From contig CAJIYT010000006.1 of assembly GCA_905181715.1 (NCBI GenBank), forward strand, positions 6,315 to 70,314: DNA of 64,000 bases, in the 5' to 3' direction. Origin of the DNA: an uncultured Candidatus Poseidoniales archaeon. Lineage in GTDB: Archaea; Thermoplasmatota; Poseidoniia; Poseidoniales; Poseidoniaceae. The notes beneath the pieces are model-generated. The model saw nothing but the letters and a program-made list of their open reading frames with translations, ran no database searches and was not told the origin of the DNA. Positions within the stretch are counted from its first letter, which is position 1. Each line of letters opens with the position of its first letter. Positions 9,475 through 42,942 of the stretch are shown piece after piece. The translations under genes and the position numbers were made by a program.

Positions 9475-9549
9475 GGGCCCGTGGGTTAGCTTGGCCTATA
9501 CTTGGCGGCTGGGGGCCGTCAGACTCCAGTTCAAATCTGGACGGGCCCA
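9475..9549 (+). tRNA. tRNA-Pro(GGG)
   Basis: Acceptor GGGCCCG/CGGGCCC, anticodon arm GGCGG-CT GGG GG-CCGTC, T arm TCCAG-TTCAAAT-CTGGA; CCA not encoded. Confidence 0.95.
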
Positions 9550-35282: not shown

Positions 35283-38200
35283 ATGAACAAGCGCTTGGTT
35301 TCAATTAACCTCGTCTTGTTATTTTTTCTTTCGGCCATATTAGTCCCTTCAGCCAATGCAGACTATGATTCGGATGGCATAACCGACGATGCTGATATTG
35401 ATGACGACGGTGATGGCGTTGCTGATATTGGTGACTCTTGCCCAACTGGGACATTAGATTGGATTTCAAACGAAACAAGTGATTATGATGGTGATGGTTG
35501 TAAAGATCGTTCAGTATTAATTGATTTTTATGATACTGAAGATTGGACTTATCAGGAATTCACATTTACGATAACAGCAGGCCAATCCTTTGACATCTAC
35601 CATGAATGCGCCCCAAATTGCCGATACGAAACCAAAATCACCATGGAGAAACCAGATGGAAATTCCGTTTTCTGGGGGAGCTATTTTATCGAAGACGAAA
35701 GAGAATCGACATTCCCATTCTACGCGGAATCGAGAGGGAGACTCTCACAAATATTCGGAATGCTGGGAGATGTAGTTTATGGTGATAATTCCATAACAAA
35801 TTCATGGAATCAAGCAGGAACCTATTCAATTAATATTACCGATTATAATCAGGATTATTACAATGATGGATACGATGTTGATAACGGGGGCGTCTCTCTT
35901 TTCGTGTATTTGGTTGGTTCTGAGGACGCTGAAGATATCGATGATGATGGCGATGGCGTAGTCGATTCTCTCGATCTCTGCATGCTTGGCGAAAGGAATT
36001 GGATCTCTACAGAATCTACAGATGCAGACGGTGATGGATGCCGAGATTTAGACGAAGATGATGACGATGACAATGATTTATGGGGCGACCACATGGATCC
36101 GTGTACAAATTATCAAACTAGCCCAGTCGATGGCGTAGGGGTTCGAGAATACCTCTTGAGCGATTCATTTAACGAATCGAATTCCGAAATCGAACCTGCA
36201 ATAGGTCATGGAACACCAGTCTTTGAGGACCTGAACGGCGAGAGTGCGCTGTATCTGGGCGGCTATGATGCAGTCGAATTTCCGAACAGTCTTACCGATG
36301 GATTAAATCATTCAGAACGAGTTCAGTTTTCTTTTGATTTCAATCTTAATGATTCTTATTTTAACAATTCACACCTAACTGCTGGTAATTCTAGTCCTGA
36401 CTATCAAGGACAACCCGGAGACGGAATTAGAATTTTAATTTCTAATCAATTAGCAGGGTTTGGCAATCTCGGTTATTCATTATGGGTGAAGAGTGATGTT
36501 GATGATGCTAGAAATTACGGGCTTTCAATGCAGATTACCCAACCAGGGATTGGAAACCATTTCCTTAATCCCATGCTCAATCGTAATCTGTCCTTTGAAA
36601 AGTGGTATACTTTGACAATCACATATGACTTTGCCTTAGAGAATCCAACAATCGAAGTTCTTCTAAATTCACAGCGGTATGTGTATTCATTAGGTCCGAA
36701 AATTGACGATATTGAATGTATTAAGGCGCATTTGATCGAGACTCCTGTTCGAATCGGCTCAGATTTAACCGGAAGTAAATTTGGCACTGAAGAAGTAAAC
36801 AGTGAAGGTGTGTTTGGCAAAGTAAATTCAACACCCTCCATTGGAATGTATGTACGAAATTTCAGTGCTAGTTCACCCGTTCCTTGGGGATCATCGATTG
36901 AGATGAATAGTGCGTTAAATGCGCTGATTGAACATATGAATGGCAATATCACACTAGATGAAATAGGAATAGATGGGAATTTAGAAAAGGTCGTTTCAAA
37001 TCTCTATGTTCCATGGTCTGACATTGGTGTAAACGCAGTGCGCTATATCGATACATATGCTGCAACTCAAGGCGCAATATTTGATGCTGGAGAAATTAAG
37101 TGGACTCCTTCTACAGATCATCCTTTGCGATATATTGGCTTTACAATGCAAGTCTATATTTTAGAATCAGTATTTACTTCCGAAAACATCCTTCAATCAG
37201 AAGGGATTGATTTTCCTGATGCTAAATATTTCCCAGGCCTCGTGGGCGAAAATGCCGTGAGAGTCGCAGATGGGAAAGCAATGATACGAGGAACCTATCA
37301 AACAGATCCAGCGCGAAGTTTCGGCGACGATAAGCGATTAATACAGCCGACTGGATTTTTTGCACCAGCAGGTGAAATAGTTACGATTGAGGTTGCAGGA
37401 GAACATACCGATGGCGGATTAGTGGCTTGGGTTGGTGCTCATCAAGCCGATCTTCGAGTGGTCACAGATGGCGCATATGCACGGTTTCCCAAAGTTGGAA
37501 TGTCTTTCCCGATAGATTCAGCAACTACACATGTGGCCAATCCATTTGGTGGTTCAATATACATCATGACACCAGACGGTGCACAGGAAGGAGATCTCGA
37601 AGTTACAATCTCAGGAGCTGTATCTTCGCCTTTATTTTCAACCAGAGAACTCAGCCAAACTACCTATGAAGAATGGAAGATTGCGGTGGAAAGCAGAGAT
37701 GCGCCATGGGGAGATATTGCCTCCGACCGGTTCATGGCGAGTTTCCCTCTAAAGCACTTGGAATATTCAAGGGATTTACTGTGTTCTTTCGACGGAACTC
37801 CCGGGACCTTTAGTTATCAGAGTTGTACCTTTTCAGTGCCCGAAGGAGAAAACATCACACTAGAACCAGCTGTTGGCCACCACGATGAAGAGGTTACAAT
37901 AAAAATCACCTATCCTGGCTCTACTACTATAACTTATGATTTAGACACCCTGTACGAAAATTCAGCACAGGGAGAGGGTGATCCAGAACCAGAATGGCAT
38001 ACATCTGGTAGCGGCGTTTTTTCAAAGGTTTCTAATCAAAGCGGAGAGTATAAAGTTGAACTCATCAGTTCTGAAGGAAATGGCGGAGCAACTTTCTATG
38101 GCGCGGTGATGAATTATTCTAAGGTTTACAATCCAACTGAACTGCTTGAAGTTTGGGACGGTGCGATTGATTCATACTTAGTCCTTGGAGGGTGGCCATT

Positions 38201-39539
38201 AGAGAGAGGAGATGCACAGCAACATATGTGGCTATTACCTGATATCCAAACCCCTGCTGCTGGAACAGTAGCACCTGCTGAAAACCCGATGAGTATGGCG
38301 GCAGATGTTAATTCGATTCGGGAAAGTACCATGGCCTCACGCCGAGACCTTTCGTGGTGGGCCGACCCTCGATTTGTAGTAGAAGAAGTATTCAACAAGG
38401 GAATAATGACAGTTTGGCATGAATGGGGACATATGCACAACATTCCATCACTGTTGGGGGAGGGTGAATCGACAGTCAATGTCCCAGCCGCAATAATTCT
38501 TAATACCATATTCAATCAATCGCTCGACGACTCATTAGCGAATGCAACTTTTCAAGGATTTAATCGTAGTGAAACAGCAATAGATTGGATGGTTACTTCG
38601 AATTTCCGTAACGGTGAACGGATTGGTGAAGGATACAAGGGCTATACCGCGGAAGGATATCCACTCGACCAAGTAAGTTACCAGGCGAGAGGAATTGGAA
38701 GATATATTGATATGGCTTATCTCTATGGTTGGGATTCCGTTGGCGGGACACACAATGTGTTCTATCAACGTATAGTTGACGGTTCAACGAAATTAAGTGA
38801 AATTGGCGTGACCAGCGATTCTGATTTCACCAAGACATCATCTCAGGTAATTGGCGCTAATATGGCGCCATTTTTCGAGTTCTGGGGGCTAGAAGTAGAT
38901 CAAGAAATACTCGATGAGTTGAATTTGATGCCGCGTTCAGAACCCGTAAAATCATTACTTCTGGAGTATAGGGAGATTCTTCCAAGGAATATCGAAGAAT
39001 TTACTGAATGGCATGACTCAACCGAATCACGTATGGGAGCATGGCAAGGTCCTCAGGTAACCTCTTATCTAGCTACATACAATAATTCCACAGGGCAGGC
39101 AGGTTTAGATCGCATTGACACAATATTATGTCTCTATTTCGAAGTCAATTGTGCGAATGTACCTGGTGTTATTCCTAACCCCGCGCCTGTAGAAAACGAT
39201 CCACCATCTGATGACAATGATGCTTCTAATGAAGAAAACGAAACATCTTCAGATGATAATGAAACCTCCACTGGAGACAACGAGACTACTTCTGATGGCA
39301 ACGAGAGTATAGCAGGAAACTCAACAGACCCTGATAATGAGACCACAACCCCTGATAATAATTCGACAATAAATAATGGGGATGGAGATACTGGAGTTGC
39401 TAAAGATAGTGCTAGAGAATCAAATTCAGAAACCTCACTAATTATATCAGCATCAATCATATTAATTGTCATAGCAATTCTAATCACAACCCAATTAAAA
39501 AGAAAGAAAAACCTAACCCCAGAAATAGAAGAAGAATAA
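35283..39539 (+). CDS. Secreted anchored M60-like (enhancin-like) metallopeptidase with TSP3-like and LamG-like domains
   Basis: Signal peptide; TGFFAPAGEIVTIEV (M60 N-domain); NPFGGSIYI; PWGDI; HEWGH at 38418-38432; GEGESTVN; C-terminal TM plus KRKK. Confidence 0.88.
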   Translation: MNKRLVSINLVLLFFLSAILVPSANADYDSDGITDDADIDDDGDGVADIGDSCPTGTLDWISNETSDYDGDGCKDRSVLIDFYDTEDWTYQEFTFTITAGQSFDIYHECAPNCRYETKITMEKPDGNSVFWGSYFIEDERESTFPFYAESRGRLSQIFGMLGDVVYGDNSITNSWNQAGTYSINITDYNQDYYNDGYDVDNGGVSLFVYLVGSEDAEDIDDDGDGVVDSLDLCMLGERNWISTESTDADGDGCRDLDEDDDDDNDLWGDHMDPCTNYQTSPVDGVGVREYLLSDSFNESNSEIEPAIGHGTPVFEDLNGESALYLGGYDAVEFPNSLTDGLNHSERVQFSFDFNLNDSYFNNSHLTAGNSSPDYQGQPGDGIRILISNQLAGFGNLGYSLWVKSDVDDARNYGLSMQITQPGIGNHFLNPMLNRNLSFEKWYTLTITYDFALENPTIEVLLNSQRYVYSLGPKIDDIECIKAHLIETPVRIGSDLTGSKFGTEEVNSEGVFGKVNSTPSIGMYVRNFSASSPVPWGSSIEMNSALNALIEHMNGNITLDEIGIDGNLEKVVSNLYVPWSDIGVNAVRYIDTYAATQGAIFDAGEIKWTPSTDHPLRYIGFTMQVYILESVFTSENILQSEGIDFPDAKYFPGLVGENAVRVADGKAMIRGTYQTDPARSFGDDKRLIQPTGFFAPAGEIVTIEVAGEHTDGGLVAWVGAHQADLRVVTDGAYARFPKVGMSFPIDSATTHVANPFGGSIYIMTPDGAQEGDLEVTISGAVSSPLFSTRELSQTTYEEWKIAVESRDAPWGDIASDRFMASFPLKHLEYSRDLLCSFDGTPGTFSYQSCTFSVPEGENITLEPAVGHHDEEVTIKITYPGSTTITYDLDTLYENSAQGEGDPEPEWHTSGSGVFSKVSNQSGEYKVELISSEGNGGATFYGAVMNYSKVYNPTELLEVWDGAIDSYLVLGGWPLERGDAQQHMWLLPDIQTPAAGTVAPAENPMSMAADVNSIRESTMASRRDLSWWADPRFVVEEVFNKGIMTVWHEWGHMHNIPSLLGEGESTVNVPAAIILNTIFNQSLDDSLANATFQGFNRSETAIDWMVTSNFRNGERIGEGYKGYTAEGYPLDQVSYQARGIGRYIDMAYLYGWDSVGGTHNVFYQRIVDGSTKLSEIGVTSDSDFTKTSSQVIGANMAPFFEFWGLEVDQEILDELNLMPRSEPVKSLLLEYREILPRNIEEFTEWHDSTESRMGAWQGPQVTSYLATYNNSTGQAGLDRIDTILCLYFEVNCANVPGVIPNPAPVENDPPSDDNDASNEENETSSDDNETSTGDNETTSDGNESIAGNSTDPDNETTTPDNNSTINNGDGDTGVAKDSARESNSETSLIISASIILIVIAILITTQLKRKKNLTPEIEEE

Positions 39540-39564: not shown

Positions 39565-39873
39565 ATGGTAGAAGTAATGGAATTGGGCAATTCAGCTCTA
39601 CAGGGGTTAATACTCGGGGTTTTGGCAGCATTTGTGTTCAAATTCGCATCAAAGGCAATCAAATTTCTACTCGTAATTCAATTCATACTTTTGAAATGGC
39701 TTGAATCTAGACAGATGATTATCGTTGACTGGCATAGAATTACCTTTGGACTGGCCGAAGAAAAGGATTTACTTCAGCAAGCAGATACCATCGTCTATTC
39801 TCTGATCGATACAGGTTCGTTTGGCATAGCTGCCATTATCGGTTTCGCTTCTGTAAGGCGATTTTTCAAGTGA
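39565..39873 (+). CDS. FUN14-domain membrane protein
   Basis: GLILGVLAAFVFKFASKAIK...LKWLE...IIVDW pattern. Confidence 0.75.
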   Translation: MVEVMELGNSALQGLILGVLAAFVFKFASKAIKFLLVIQFILLKWLESRQMIIVDWHRITFGLAEEKDLLQQADTIVYSLIDTGSFGIAAIIGFASVRRFFK

Positions 39874-39896: not shown

Positions 39897-41186
39897 CTAA
39901 CTCTTAATTCTTTCAGGAGTGACCCATTCATCCCAACTTGAATCAAATCCAACATAGTGAATCAGATAGGACTCTCCCGAAATATCTTGGATGATTGCAT
40001 CCCACCAAGTCCCTTCCCATTCAACTTGAATTTGCATACCTCGGGAATATGTGTTATTGAATGGGTGCTCATCAGGCCTTTCAGTCCACCCAGTTGGCCC
40101 AACTACATACATCGTGTTCCTTGTTTCAACCCTAGCAGTTGCCCTAGCATCGTATGTAACAGATTGAATAGCTGAGGACTTGATCTTACCTTCACCTAAC
40201 TTTGGATGAGCATATGCATACCCTCTTAGTATTCCATCGGAAATTATAGCATCACGAATGACGACTTCTGGTTTGGTTTGCGATAATTCTGAATCTTCAG
40301 AACCAAGCATAAATTTAGCAAGAGAACGATAGTCAATTTCTGAATCTAATCCAATTCCCATTTCGCTAAATTCTTGCATTACATCATCTATTGATATCTG
40401 TTCATCACTCATTTCAGTGAGAATTGTAAAATATTCTTTCGCAGAAATTGTTCCGCTATTATCTGCATCAAAAACTTGGAATGCTTCGATAAGTTCTCTT
40501 TCTTCTTTAGATTCGTTTTCGATATAATCTTGAACTTCTTTAGATTCTTCATTTAGAGGTTCGATCCTTCCCCATTCGACATTATACTCTACGTCTCCAT
40601 CATCAAAATGAATGTTGAATGTAAAATCTGCGTTCTCACTGGCGATTTTGCCAGGGAAATAGTGACCATGGTTTTTCCAATTAACGAATACTCTGTCTCC
40701 TGATTTTAAGGGTATGCTTGCTGGGCGTATAGTTCCTGGTGACGTCCCAATCACAACGGCTAATTTAGTTTCGATTGCAGTGTCCTTAGGAACTTCAACC
40801 CTGTAGGTACCGTCATCATTTATTGCTACTACTTTACATCGATTTAGCCATCGAGCATTTGTTGGACTGTGGTACTCAACATGGTCTCCAACTTGGAAGG
40901 ATTGAGGTAGTTCAATATCGGGAGCAGGTGGGGCTTGAGGAGGAGTATTATCTCCGAGCATCCCTAACTGTTGCAGTGCTGCTATAACCGCTGCAGTAAC
41001 AGTTGCAGGGTCATTGTTAATCACCGTATTACTAACTACATCTCCACCTATTACTGAGTCTTGCATTGAGAGCGTTTGATTGTTATCGGGAGGGGTCAAG
41101 GGTTCTGATGCAGGAGGAGCGGGAATCCATTCATTACCTATCCATATGAACTTACCATCTGGACTGTAAACAGGAGCATCGGTCAT
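39897..41186 (-). CDS. Multi-domain cytoplasmic protein: 2x Tudor/SH3-like, EF-hand region, unknown beta domain, C-terminal chromo-barrel/Tudor-knot
   Basis: ATG at 41186 (429 aa); FQVGDHVEY..., GDRVFVNWKNHGHYFPGKI...IHFDDGD, AFQVFDADNSGTISAKE, VEWEGTWWDAII...YLIHYVGFDSSWDEWVTPERI. Confidence 0.85.
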   Translation of the reverse strand: MTDAPVYSPDGKFIWIGNEWIPAPPASEPLTPPDNNQTLSMQDSVIGGDVVSNTVINNDPATVTAAVIAALQQLGMLGDNTPPQAPPAPDIELPQSFQVGDHVEYHSPTNARWLNRCKVVAINDDGTYRVEVPKDTAIETKLAVVIGTSPGTIRPASIPLKSGDRVFVNWKNHGHYFPGKIASENADFTFNIHFDDGDVEYNVEWGRIEPLNEESKEVQDYIENESKEERELIEAFQVFDADNSGTISAKEYFTILTEMSDEQISIDDVMQEFSEMGIGLDSEIDYRSLAKFMLGSEDSELSQTKPEVVIRDAIISDGILRGYAYAHPKLGEGKIKSSAIQSVTYDARATARVETRNTMYVVGPTGWTERPDEHPFNNTYSRGMQIQVEWEGTWWDAIIQDISGESYLIHYVGFDSSWDEWVTPERIKS

Positions 41187-41244
41187 AACTATCGCATAAT
41201 GTTGTAATACTTCTGCTTTGAGAATAAAATCACTCTTTATAAAT

Positions 41245-42861
41245 TCAAGGAAGGCCTTCAGAAGAATCTTCCTTAGGGGTGCGGTCACCCGAACTGAACA
41301 TTAGATACATCAGTCCAGTTAGACCAATTCCAATCATTAGCAGGTGGCTAATAGTGAAATGTTCGAGTATCGAATTGTAAAAACTTTCACTAGTCGCAGC
41401 CGTCTTGTGTGATGCATGAATAACAATCGATATAATTGGAAGAGCCCCAAGAGTCGCGAAGAACTTAACTGAGTTAATAGTCACTTTTTCGACTAAATCA
41501 GTAGTGAAATCTTCTAACATATTAGTTATTGCAAAGGCTGCAAGAATCGATCCAGGGATAATTATTGCATAATGCAGTTGTCCAAGTAGGGAGGGGGGTG
41601 AAAGCAATGTCAGTCCAAAAAGAGCACCAAGATAGATTATGAAACTTCGTTCAACAGGCTCGAGTATTTTGTCTAGGGGGATGATTGAGAGGATTGCAAG
41701 GAATGGTGTGAAAGTCAGCAGACTAGCTACTATTCCGGCCACCATAACTCCTACGACTGACTCAAGATCAGTTAGTATATTACTTACTAATAGAGCCGTT
41801 GCAAGGCCGCCTATTACAGCGAATAGAATCGCTAATGCCACCTTTTTACCCATCGAGCGCTCCCCCTCATCTTCAGTAAGCTCACCAATGATTAGGAATA
41901 ATAGGACTGGTAGTACAACTATTACTCCAATCGGTGATGACAAGATCGACAGTATTATCGCAGGTACAATCAGAAATGAATGAGGCTTCTTTCCTGCCAA
42001 TCTACTGGTTGAGAATAGCACTGCAAATAGGGTGAACATTTGCGCCATAGCAATACCTAGGGGCAGTGAATTTACATCTGCTTGAACAAGATAGAAAAAG
42101 TACGAAAACATGGCGATAATAGAGAACATTTTCGCCATCATCGAGGGCTCATCTTTAGCTCTTTTCTTGGCAATAGCATGTTTATCAACCTCCTCTTCCG
42201 AAATTGTCGAGGATGCAGAAGATGAGCTCTCATCATTTCTAGAATCTAATTCTTCTCCTAAAGTAAGAGGATCATTTGCCACTCTTTTTATCGCTCCGAG
42301 AGATTCTTTTCCTTCCTTGATTTTCGTATTGGCTTCAGAGATTAATGATTCTGCATTCTCAAGAATATCGCCAATTTCTTCGACAATACCCTCCATACTA
42401 TCTCCTACTTCGTCAATATCTATCGATAGGTTAATGCCTCCTAATTCTTGAAGTGTCCATATCCTCAGCGTAATCTTTCGAATTAGTAATAATGAGACGA
42501 ATGAACAGAAGATATTGATGGCTAAAACAGAGTTACCTACTGATAATTTTGTTTGAAGAGCCTTTACTGCATAGGCATGAGCAAGAGGTAAACCATCTTT
42601 CCAGTCCATATCCTGCCAACTAAGGGCTGGAACCCAATTGTCACCTATGTCATTCGAATAATCAATAGATGGATCATCTGGATTATTCGAAATTTCCTTC
42701 ATGTCGAAATCTACATCAGGTATCCCTCCGGGGTTATGATCTATTGATAATTCAGCCATGCTGAAGGTTACAAGTAATGCAAGCATAATTGGTAGCGACC
42801 AATTCAGAACTCTTTTGAGGATTATATCATCAAGCTTAGTCAGGAAATGCAAGGCGCCCAT
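41245..42861 (-). CDS. Hypothetical polytopic membrane protein with an acidic coiled-coil insert
   Basis: Roughly ten or more hydrophobic helices; ATG at 42861 (or 42885); lies directly downstream of tRNA-Leu. Confidence 0.75.
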   Translation of the reverse strand: MGALHFLTKLDDIILKRVLNWSLPIMLALLVTFSMAELSIDHNPGGIPDVDFDMKEISNNPDDPSIDYSNDIGDNWVPALSWQDMDWKDGLPLAHAYAVKALQTKLSVGNSVLAINIFCSFVSLLLIRKITLRIWTLQELGGINLSIDIDEVGDSMEGIVEEIGDILENAESLISEANTKIKEGKESLGAIKRVANDPLTLGEELDSRNDESSSSASSTISEEEVDKHAIAKKRAKDEPSMMAKMFSIIAMFSYFFYLVQADVNSLPLGIAMAQMFTLFAVLFSTSRLAGKKPHSFLIVPAIILSILSSPIGVIVVLPVLLFLIIGELTEDEGERSMGKKVALAILFAVIGGLATALLVSNILTDLESVVGVMVAGIVASLLTFTPFLAILSIIPLDKILEPVERSFIIYLGALFGLTLLSPPSLLGQLHYAIIIPGSILAAFAITNMLEDFTTDLVEKVTINSVKFFATLGALPIISIVIHASHKTAATSESFYNSILEHFTISHLLMIGIGLTGLMYLMFSSGDRTPKEDSSEGLP

Positions 42862-42942
42862 AATCTTAGATGTGAAACTTTTCATTCATCAACAATTCGG
42901 TGAAGTATTCAATTCAGCACTAATTATAGTAATAATTTTGAG

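What the first reader, a model, noticed from the sequence alone, without database searches (positions are those of the whole stretch)
39897..41186. Tudor/chromo-barrel plus EF-hand protein: a candidate Ca2+-responsive methyl-lysine reader in an archaeon
Seen: two Tudor/SH3-like barrels (aa ~96-155, ~160-211), a calmodulin-like region with one canonical loop DADNSGTISAKE, a beta domain (GYAYAHPKL..G.IKSS...VETRNTMY), and a final barrel WEGTWWDAII...YLIHYVGFDSSWDEWVTPERI. Knowledge: this last motif parallels the chromo-barrels of MRG15 (YFIHYSGWNKNWDEWV) and MOF (FYVHYVGFNRRLDEWV), and the aromatic-cage positions are aromatic here. Inference: a multivalent reader or scaffold gated by calcium. 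Caveat: Agenet/Tudor-knot-like domains also occur in bacteria with unknown ligands.
Basis: partly seen in the sequence, partly recalled or inferred. Interest (0 to 1): 0.68.

Follow-up and report, generated by a model that had tools for sequence, protein, structure and literature searches.

The report
Archaeal multi-Tudor protein with EF-hand pair
A marine archaeon (Marine Group II, Poseidoniales) encodes a real, conserved cytoplasmic protein built from three chromatin-reader-type barrels with intact aromatic cages plus a calmodulin-like EF-hand pair. The calcium site is kept in only one branch of the family, no known lysine methyltransferase is present, and what the protein binds is unknown.

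Summary
Window 39897-41186 (-) encodes a 429-aa soluble, acidic protein with these parts: an N-terminal W-x-G-x-E-W hairpin and a DSVIGGD module; a divergent Tudor-like barrel; a 53BP1/KDM4A-type Tudor barrel; a calmodulin-C-lobe-like EF-hand pair; an orphan beta domain; and an MRG/Eaf3-type chromo barrel (Pfam Tudor-knot above threshold). The aromatic-cage positions are almost invariant across the family.

- The canonical EF loop (Glu at position 12) is confined to the window's own clade. About two thirds of family clusters carry Lys there, so calcium gating is not a family property.
- No SET, DOT1 or Methyltransf_16 gene is in this genome, and SET occurs in only 2 of 251 Poseidoniales genomes.
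- The gene is patchy: about a third of species genomes match, with variants that lack domains. It has no conserved neighbours.
- The C-terminal barrel belongs to the "bacterial chromo-like" domain family described in 2018, but here it is intracellular.
- The Tudor barrel's nearest outside relatives are giant protist Tudor-repeat proteins, some of which also carry EF-hands.

Best reading: a lineage-specific multivalent peptide-binding adaptor, possibly a reader of methyl-ammonium marks. It is a new variant of known kinds. The same scan already flagged the family in other genomes.

The parts
39897..41186 (-). Whole gene: 429 aa plus stop. The protein is soluble and acidic (pI 4.4, net charge about -39).
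   Evidence: maximum Kyte-Doolittle 19-residue window 1.28, so no transmembrane segment or signal peptide
41236..41243 (-). TATA-like box TTTATAAA, about 50 nt upstream of the ATG and directly after the stop of the upstream gene. It suggests the gene has its own promoter (inferred).
   Evidence: sequence read directly
41112..41174 (-). N-terminal hairpin motif SPDGKFIWIGNEWIPAPP (aa 5-25). It recurs in other Poseidoniales proteins, and a zinc ribbon replaces it in one variant.
   Evidence: (strands 13-15 and 20-22)
40959..41066 (-). DSVIGGDVV...NNDP-AVT-AVIAALQQLG module (aa 41-76): a short beta segment plus an amphipathic helix. It is a shuffled module of unknown function.
   Evidence: (P0166, P0240)
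40719..40901 (-). Barrel 1 (aa 96-156): a divergent Tudor/SH3-like barrel. H102, E104, Y105, W113 and Y128 are invariant.
   Evidence: hhalign against barrel 2: 93.5%, E 2.4e-7; weak match to PHF20 Tudor; four tandem copies in L012
40554..40709 (-). Barrel 2 (aa 160-211): a 53BP1/Crb2/KDM4A-type Tudor barrel. W170, Y176, F/Y177, F194, D196 and D198 are invariant or nearly so.
40299..40541 (-). Long helix plus EF-hand pair (aa 216-296), resembling the calmodulin C-lobe.
40434..40469 (-). EF loop 1, DADNSGTISAKE (aa 240-251). It is canonical in this protein, but Glu251 is replaced by Lys, Gln or Thr in the other main clade.
40056..40274 (-). Orphan beta domain (aa 305-377), the most conserved part of the protein. 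It also occurs fused to membrane proteins.
39903..40040 (-). C-terminal chromo barrel / Tudor-knot (aa 383-428) with cage residues W390, W395, Y411, F414 and W418.

Best explanation
The gene encodes a non-enzymatic, cytoplasmic, multivalent adaptor that is specific to the archaeal order Poseidoniales.

Shown:
- It is a string of independently folding modules: three Royal-family barrels, one EF-hand pair, one orphan beta domain and an N-terminal hairpin/helix module.
- These modules are shuffled among several Poseidoniales proteins.
- The aromatic-cage positions of barrel 2 (53BP1/KDM4A type) and of the C-terminal chromo barrel (MRG/Eaf3 type) are under strong purifying selection.

Inferred:
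- The cages bind a cationic, probably methyl-ammonium-bearing group on partner proteins. Candidates are methyl-Lys or methyl-Arg, or another quaternary-ammonium mark.
- Several weak sites on one chain would give avidity and allow bridging of partners.
- The EF pair is first of all a structural or helix-clamping interaction module. It can add Ca2+ sensitivity only in the MGIIa clade that includes this window, where loop 1 is canonical. In the Lys-12 clade it must work without Ca2+.
- The N-terminal module and the beta domain probably link the protein to the same partners as the TPR and membrane proteins that share them.
For: Domain identities. Cage conservation; the mapping onto MRG-type barrels comes from the HMM alignment.

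Strong conservation along the whole length: 64-85% identity across both families of the order.

Folds: Foldseek matches the full model to multi-Tudor and Agenet readers (AGDP3 1.2e-7, SETDB1 triple Tudor, SGF29).

Soluble and acidic, so neither secreted nor membrane-bound.

Module shuffling:
- N-module with TPR repeats (L006)
- N-motif with a membrane transglutaminase-like protein (L007)
- zinc ribbon in place of the hairpin (L009)
- beta domain on membrane proteins (L010, L011)
- four copies of barrel 1 (L012)
- paralogue with two copies of barrel 2 and an EF pair (L013)

EF-loop clade split.
Against: - No ligand or partner is known.
- No SET, DOT1 or Methyltransf_16 writer is in the genome (85.5% complete). 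SET is almost absent from the order.
- There are no conserved gene neighbours to suggest a pathway.
- The gene is dispensable for many Poseidoniales: only 91 of 251 species genomes match at all, and 30 of 65 high-quality genomes.
- Aromatic residues at cage positions also stabilise the barrels, so conservation alone does not prove ligand binding.
Confidence: 0.45

Rival explanations
1. One reading: a Ca2+-gated methyl-lysine reader acting on archaeal chromatin, for example on the order-specific multi-histone-fold protein encoded 15 kb away.
For: The cages are intact and the EF loop is canonical in this protein. Poseidoniales carry a unique acidic multi-histone-fold protein (PMC13260811). The closest solved relatives of both barrels are histone-mark readers.
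Against: The Ca2+ ligand Glu12 is absent from about two thirds of the family. No lysine methyltransferase of the three main families is present. By the literature, the histone-fold protein is present across the order, whereas this gene is patchy. There is no gene linkage in other genomes. That histone-fold protein may not bind DNA.
Confidence: 0.15
2. A scaffold that reads no modification. The barrels act like SH3 domains on unmodified proline-rich or basic linear motifs, possibly including the protein's own invariant WIPAPP and PPxxP linkers. The EF pair is purely structural.
For: No writer was found. Conserved Pro-rich linkers are present, with P22, P24, P25, P86 and P87 invariant or nearly so. 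Modules are shared with a TPR scaffold protein. ZapC shows that prokaryotic Tudor/chromo-like domains can bind an unmodified tail (PMC4686002, abstract).
Against: A complete five-aromatic cage of the MRG type and the W/Y/F/D set of the 53BP1 type are more than fold stability needs.
Confidence: 0.25
3. A nucleic-acid-binding protein, using the RNA or DNA binding reported for some chromo barrels, Tudor-knots and SH3-like barrels.
For: Pfam describes PF11717 as an RNA-binding knot of a chromodomain. SH3-like barrels often bind nucleic acids (10.1101/217323). Foldseek also returns Spt5 KOW repeats.
Against: Net charge is about -39 and pI 4.4. The C-terminal barrel has pI 4.2, and no module is basic.
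Confidence: 0.07
4. A sensor of free quaternary-ammonium osmolytes such as glycine betaine, choline or TMAO, using the aromatic cages.
For: This rests only on general chemistry: aromatic boxes bind trimethylammonium groups, and such solutes are abundant in the surface ocean. No tool result supports it.
Against: Royal-family cages are known to read side chains in a peptide context. There is no output domain and no transporter linkage.
Confidence: 0.04

Closest known systems
Prokaryotic 'chromo-like' domains (Kaur, Iyer, Subramanian & Aravind, bioRxiv 10.1101/217323)
   Same: The C-terminal barrel is 41-54% identical to copies of this domain in proteins that, judged by their domain make-up, are bacterial: caspase fusions (P0185), an ECF-sigma protein (P0232) and a Ser/Thr-kinase protein (P0240). 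Per-domain scores are 46-59 bits, almost as high as to divergent members of its own family. The aromatic cage is conserved. The paper notes rare euryarchaeal members and EF-hand fusions.
   Different: The paper describes the bacterial versions as consistently secreted, often in tandem and fused to peptidases. Here a single copy sits at the C-terminus of a soluble protein with no signal peptide, in an archaeon, combined with Tudor barrels.
MRG15 / Eaf3 / MRG701 / MRG2 chromo barrels (H3K36me readers; Pfam Tudor-knot PF11717)
   Same: The profile of the C-terminal barrel hits them at E 2e-11 to 3e-9. The ...HY.G[WF]..[SN]WDEWV motif is shared, and all five cage positions are aromatic.
   Different: There is no MRG domain, no acetyltransferase-complex context and no canonical histone tails. 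Position 1 of the cage is Trp here instead of His (MRG15 numbering recalled from memory).
53BP1 / Crb2 tandem Tudor and KDM4A hybrid Tudor domains
   Same: The barrel 2 profile hits KDM4A at 5.7e-8 and 53BP1 at 2.5e-7. Pfam Tudor_3 is above its cut-off. The W...Y[YF]PG...F[DH]FDDGD signature is shared.
   Different: The partner barrel (barrel 1) is strongly diverged. Asp198 replaces the last cage Tyr of 53BP1 (residue mapping recalled from memory). There is no DNA-repair or demethylase context.
Giant protist tandem-Tudor proteins (e.g. Tribonema minus KAG5192664.1, Hondaea GBG28986.1, Pythium TMW64474.1)
   Same: These are the nearest non-archaeal relatives of barrel 2, at 35-40 bits per domain. 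Some unnamed large relatives from metagenomes (P0137, P0157, P0251) also contain EF-hand pairs.
   Different: They are proteins of 1,000-7,600 aa with 10-29 repeats. No single alignment runs from a Tudor barrel into the EF-hand pair, so a transferred Tudor-EF unit is not shown.
Calmodulin C-lobe
   Same: About 40% identity over 70 aa, E 2e-11. The helix-loop-helix pair is predicted.
   Different: There is only one pair, embedded in a larger protein. The second loop is degenerate, and the first loses Glu12 in most orthologues.

Membership tests
Tudor-knot / chromo barrel (Pfam PF11717, MRG/Eaf3 type) | HMM match above the curated threshold | tested here: met
   28.9 bits against a cut-off of 20.8. 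Scanned alone, 31.6 bits. The profile hits Eaf3 and MRG proteins in the PDB at E 2e-11.
Tudor-knot / chromo barrel (Pfam PF11717, MRG/Eaf3 type) | Five aromatic cage positions | tested here: met
   W390, W395, Y411, F414 and W418 align to the cage columns of MRG701/Eaf3. They are conserved in 106-111 of about 111 members that have the domain. Cage geometry was not measured.
Tudor-knot / chromo barrel (Pfam PF11717, MRG/Eaf3 type) | Small beta barrel fold | tested here: met
   AlphaFold2 predicts strands 385-390, 393-403, 406-411 and 419-422 with pLDDT 84-88.
Tudor-knot / chromo barrel (Pfam PF11717, MRG/Eaf3 type) | Binds methyl-lysine on histone tails | not testable with these tools
   Needs peptide binding assays.
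Bacterial chromo-like domain proteins (Kaur et al. 2018) | Sequence membership of the domain | tested here: met
   41-54% identity and 46-59 bits to copies in bacterial-type caspase, sigma and kinase fusion proteins. The genome scan finds Nannocystaceae, Myxococcales, Pseudanabaena and Magnetococcales among the best matches.
Bacterial chromo-like domain proteins (Kaur et al. 2018) | Secreted or extracytoplasmic location | tested here: not met
   No hydrophobic N-terminus or transmembrane segment (maximum Kyte-Doolittle 19-residue window 1.28).
53BP1/Crb2/KDM4A-type Tudor | HMM or profile match | tested here: met
   Tudor_3 scores 27.9 bits against a cut-off of 25.8 for the domain alone. PDB profile hits at 5.7e-8 to 2.5e-7.
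53BP1/Crb2/KDM4A-type Tudor | Aromatic and acidic cage residues | tested here: inconclusive
   W170, Y/F177, F194 and D196 are invariant. The residue-by-residue mapping onto 53BP1 rests on my recollection of its numbering. The last cage Tyr is Asp198 here.
Canonical Ca2+-binding EF-hand | 12-residue loop matching PROSITE PS00018, with Glu or Asp at position 12 | tested here: met
   DADNSGTISAKEY at aa 240 matches. Across the family only 25 of 121 clusters match, and position 12 is Lys in 74 of 121.
Canonical Ca2+-binding EF-hand | A paired second functional loop | tested here: not met
   In loop 2 (GIGLDSEIDYRS), position 1 is Gly in 117 of 121 clusters, and position 12 is Ser in this protein.
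Canonical Ca2+-binding EF-hand | Measured Ca2+ binding | not testable with these tools
   Needs ITC or a 45Ca overlay.
Calmodulin | Four EF-hands in a free-standing protein of about 149 aa | tested here: not met
   One pair only, embedded at aa 216-296.

The most novel reading that the evidence does not exclude
Poseidoniales run an intracellular mark-reading system of their own. A non-SET writer (a class I methyltransferase, or an existing trimethylammonium mark such as diphthamide on aEF2) creates methyl-ammonium marks. This multi-cage protein reads them. In the MGIIa clade, Ca2+ binding to the EF-hand switches the read-out. That would be a prokaryotic, cytoplasmic analogue of eukaryotic reader biology, assembled from bacterial and eukaryote-like parts.
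Probability: 0.12. Interest if true: 0.8.

Novelty: new variant of a known kind. Interest (0 to 1): 0.5.

Why it matters
Current surveys treat methyl-mark reader domains as eukaryotic innovations (10.1101/2021.11.30.470311). They treat prokaryotic chromo-like domains as secreted (10.1101/217323).

This family is a counter-example. It is a cytoplasmic prokaryotic protein that combines two reader classes with intact cages and an EF-hand pair, and it occurs in one of the most abundant archaeal groups of the surface ocean.

If a ligand were found, it would show either protein-methylation signalling without SET enzymes or a non-chromatin ancestral use of these cages. The natural Glu/Lys switch in the EF loop between the two clades is a ready-made experiment on Ca2+ dependence.

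The likely origin by domain transfer, and the gene's absence from many Poseidoniales, limit its bearing on eukaryote origins.

Tried and rejected
- **Conserved operon partners:** none. Neighbours differ completely between genomes. In the window the neighbours are an unannotated membrane protein, a FUN14 protein and an M60-like peptidase.
- **Writer search:** SET, DOT1 and Methyltransf_16 are absent from the genome. SET is in 2 of 251 genomes of the order.
- **Viral carriage:** no relatives in IMG/VR.
- **Beta domain as a fourth Royal-family barrel:** rejected. hhalign probability is below 1% against both barrel profiles. There is no PDB sequence hit and no significant PDB fold hit; the best is the DNMT1 RFTS beta-barrel lobe at E 0.2.
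- **A Tudor-EF unit transferred whole from eukaryotes:** not supported. No credible single alignment spans both.
- **Literature:** no paper in the library mentions both Tudor and Poseidoniales. A 2022 survey notes only 'calcium-binding domains' in clade-specific Poseidoniales modules (PMC9258230).
- **Bacterial promoter and terminator scan:** uninformative for an archaeon.
- **Cage geometry:** could not be measured, because model coordinates are not exposed to the Python box.
Full report
**The gene**

The frame at window 39897-41186 on the minus strand is open and gives a 429-aa protein, P0001. The mechanical ORF list extends it to a GTG at 41288. That extension overlaps the upstream membrane-protein gene (41245-42885). 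Most homologues start at the same Met, and a TATA-like TTTATAAA lies about 50 nt upstream of the ATG.

The protein has no hydrophobic N-terminus and no transmembrane segment; the maximum Kyte-Doolittle 19-residue window is 1.28. It is acidic, with pI 4.4 and 71 Asp+Glu against 32 Lys+Arg, like the rest of the window's proteome (median pI 4.8). It is a soluble cytoplasmic protein.

**Organism and family**

A search of 5.8 billion proteins gave 387 homologues. The 120 listed are mostly about 430 aa long and 64-85% identical to the query. Where named, they come from Candidatus Poseidoniales, Poseidoniaceae or Thalassarchaeaceae (Marine Group II archaea). NCBI calls some of them 'Tudor-knot domain-containing protein'. 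The best genome matches to the C-terminal domain are MGIIa/Poseidoniaceae MAGs. The window's genome has a single copy.

**Anatomy**

- **aa 5-25:** a hairpin, SPDGKFIWIGNEWIPAPP.
- **aa 41-76:** the module DSVIGGDVV..TVINNDP.AVT.AVIAALQQLG, a short beta segment followed by an amphipathic helix.
- **aa 96-156, barrel 1:** no Pfam match. It is homologous to barrel 2 by profile-profile comparison (93.5%, E 2.4e-7) and weakly similar to the PHF20 Tudor domain.
- **aa 160-211, barrel 2:** Pfam Tudor_3 is above its cut-off when the domain is scanned alone (27.9 against 25.8 bits). Its profile hits the KDM4A hybrid Tudor (5.7e-8), PHF20L1 and 53BP1 (2.5e-7).
- **aa 216-296:** a long helix followed by an EF-hand pair. 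EF-hand_1 is above its cut-off, and the calmodulin C-lobe matches at E 2e-11 and about 40% identity.
- **aa 305-377:** a beta domain with no Pfam or PDB sequence match.
- **aa 383-428:** a chromo barrel. Tudor-knot scores 28.9 against 20.8 bits. Its profile hits Eaf3, MRG701, MRG15 and MRG2 at 2e-11 to 3e-9, then L3MBTL, FMRP, ARID4A and MOF.

The full-length AlphaFold2 model is of modest quality (pLDDT 65.8, pTM 0.33), as expected for beads on a string. The barrels are better resolved (75-88). Foldseek finds multi-Tudor and Agenet readers first: AGDP3 AGD1-4 at 1.2e-7, then the SETDB1 triple Tudor and SGF29.

**Cages**

In the HMM alignment to MRG701/Eaf3, the five cage columns correspond to W390, W395, Y411, F414 and W418. 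These are conserved in 106-111 of the roughly 111 cluster representatives that have the domain.

In barrel 2, W170, F194, D196 and D198 are invariant or almost so, Y176 is conserved in 119 of 121, and position 177 is Tyr or Phe in all. My mapping of these residues onto 53BP1 (W1495, Y1502, F1519, D1521, with Asp198 replacing Y1523) is from memory.

Barrel 1 keeps H102, E104, Y105, W113 and Y128 invariant.

This weakens the claim.

**The EF-hand**

The window's loop DADNSGTISAKEY is the only PS00018 match in the protein. Loop 2 (GIGLDSEIDYRS) has Gly at position 1 in 117 of 121 clusters, so it is degenerate.

Across 121 cluster representatives, position 12 of loop 1, the bidentate Glu, is Glu in 38, Lys in 74, Gln in 6, Thr in 2 and Arg in 1. 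Only 25 match PS00018.

On a FastTree of 104 full-length members, all 26 rows of the window's clade have Glu. The other clade (78 rows, including sequences named Thalassarchaeaceae) has Lys, Gln or Thr with a single exception. The tree needs 7 changes, against 31.6 expected from shuffled labels.

The remainder of the EF pair is equally conserved in both clades. Ca2+ gating is therefore at most a property of the MGIIa-type clade. The conserved role of the pair must be independent of Ca2+, for example clamping a helix. That last point is inference.

**Distribution**

Of 251 species genomes of the order, 91 have any match at E <= 1e-5. Roughly 55 have a near-full-length gene, spread over all three families and 17 of 25 genera. 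Among genomes at least 90% complete, 30 of 65 match.

Several variants exist:
- forms of about 375 aa that lack the chromo barrel
- forms that lack barrel 1
- forms of 539-568 aa with an extra domain of about 110 aa before the chromo barrel (L008)
- a 353-aa form in which a zinc ribbon replaces the hairpin, with barrel 2 duplicated and the protein ending after the EF pair (L009)
- a 335-aa paralogue in the window's own genus, with two hairpins, two Tudor barrels and a degenerate EF pair (L013)

Within the phylum (301 genomes, 138 genera), Tudor-knot occurs only in Poseidoniales and only in this family. None of 14 control prokaryote genomes has it.

Gene neighbourhoods differ completely between genomes, so no partner can be inferred from context. 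No relatives were found in viral contigs.

**Module sharing**

- The N-terminal module is fused to TPR repeats in a protein of about 490 aa found in many genomes (L006).
- The hairpin alone starts a 701-aa membrane protein with TSP3 repeats and a transglutaminase-like core (L007).
- The DSxIGGD module also follows the double zinc ribbon of a Ser/Thr kinase with bacterial-type architecture that ends in chromo-like barrels (P0240).
- It also ends a protein made of four copies of barrel 1 and a coiled coil (L012).
- The beta domain occurs after a transmembrane helix in a 127-aa protein (L010) and at the end of a DUF3592 membrane protein (L011).

**The beta domain**

Modelled alone, the beta domain is confident (pLDDT 86.7, pTM 0.71). 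It has no significant PDB neighbour; the best is the DNMT1 RFTS beta-barrel lobe at E 0.2 and TM 0.52. It is unrelated to the barrels.

It does resemble a set of small uncharacterised phage proteins in BFVD (E 5e-4, TM 0.64, 20-28% identity). Sequence support is weak (phrog_33444, 9 of 16 members, best E 0.003). This gives no function.

**Origins of the parts**

The chromo barrel is 41-54% identical to chromo-like domains fused to caspases, to an ECF sigma/anti-sigma-like protein and to a kinase. Per-domain scores are 46-59 bits, compared with 58-69 bits to divergent members of its own family. The genome scan places Nannocystaceae, Myxococcales, Pseudanabaena and Magnetococcales among the Poseidoniales hits.

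This is the family described by Kaur et al. They reported it as consistently secreted in bacteria, rare in euryarchaea and sometimes fused to EF-hands. The domain was probably exchanged horizontally; that is inference.

Barrel 2's nearest outside relatives are giant tandem-Tudor proteins of stramenopiles and other protists, at 35-40 bits per domain. Several large unnamed relatives from metagenomes also carry EF-hand pairs. No alignment spans Tudor and EF together, so transfer as a unit is not shown.

**Writers**

The genome is 85.5% complete. It has no SET, DOT1 or Methyltransf_16 gene. SET occurs in 2 of 251 genomes of the order, and neither carries this gene. A class I methyltransferase that these models do not recognise cannot be excluded.

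**Verdict**

The protein is a reader-like multivalent module array in an archaeon. However, calcium control is clade-specific rather than a property of the family, the mark and its writer are unknown, and the C-terminal domain type and its prokaryotic occurrence were already published.

I rate it a new variant of known kinds. It is an intracellular archaeal combination of Tudor, chromo-like and EF-hand modules with an orphan domain, and it is of moderate interest.

Earlier notes of this scan on orthologues in other genomes reached similar readings. I treat them as leads, not as support. My added findings are:
- the split of the EF loop between the two clades
- the patchy distribution and the domain-loss variants
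- the network of shared modules
- the absence of known writers
- the phage-like fold of the beta domain

Noticed in passing
window 40056-40274 (-), aa 305-377: The orphan beta domain models confidently. Its only significant structural neighbours are small uncharacterised phage proteins, including ones from Pantoea phage LIMElight, Serratia phage Muldoon and Escherichia phage VR7 (Cd.1) (BFVD Foldseek E 5e-4 to 1e-2, TM 0.5-0.67). There is also a weak match to phrog_33444.
   Followed up: partly
L006:818-2290 (-), L007:1428-3533 (+), L009:924-1985 (+): The N-terminal SPDGK.xW.G.EWxP hairpin, with or without the DSVIGGD module, is a mobile module in Poseidoniales. It is fused to TPR repeats and to a membrane transglutaminase-like protein with TSP3 repeats. 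In one variant a CxxC...CxxC zinc ribbon replaces it.
   Followed up: partly
L008:498-2123 (+): Orthologues of 539-568 aa carry an extra domain of about 110 aa (FYTVQGAGTGKCNGTY...WWYLADRNSLDSKRGDFY) between the beta domain and the chromo barrel. It was not identified.
   Followed up: no
P0137, P0157, P0251, P0136: Giant proteins of 1,900-7,600 aa from metagenomes, apparently protist, combine many 53BP1/Crb2-type Tudor repeats with EF-hand pairs, and in P0251 with SAM domains. This is a eukaryotic parallel of the Tudor plus EF-hand combination.
   Followed up: partly
window 35283-39539 (+) and 39565-39873 (+): The downstream neighbours are a 1,418-aa secreted M60-like (enhancin-type) peptidase with Asp-rich calcium-binding-type repeats and a C-terminal transmembrane anchor, and a 102-aa FUN14-family membrane protein.
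   Followed up: partly
window 9475-9549 (+): ARAGORN calls a tRNA-Pro(GGG) here, but the Rfam tRNA model does not report it at gathering threshold.
   Followed up: no
L095 (G215:C12:7231-7392) and L096 (G009:C22:2307-2411): These are the only two SET-domain matches in 251 Poseidoniales genomes. They lie in short open frames of 103 and 52 aa and may be fragments.
   Followed up: no
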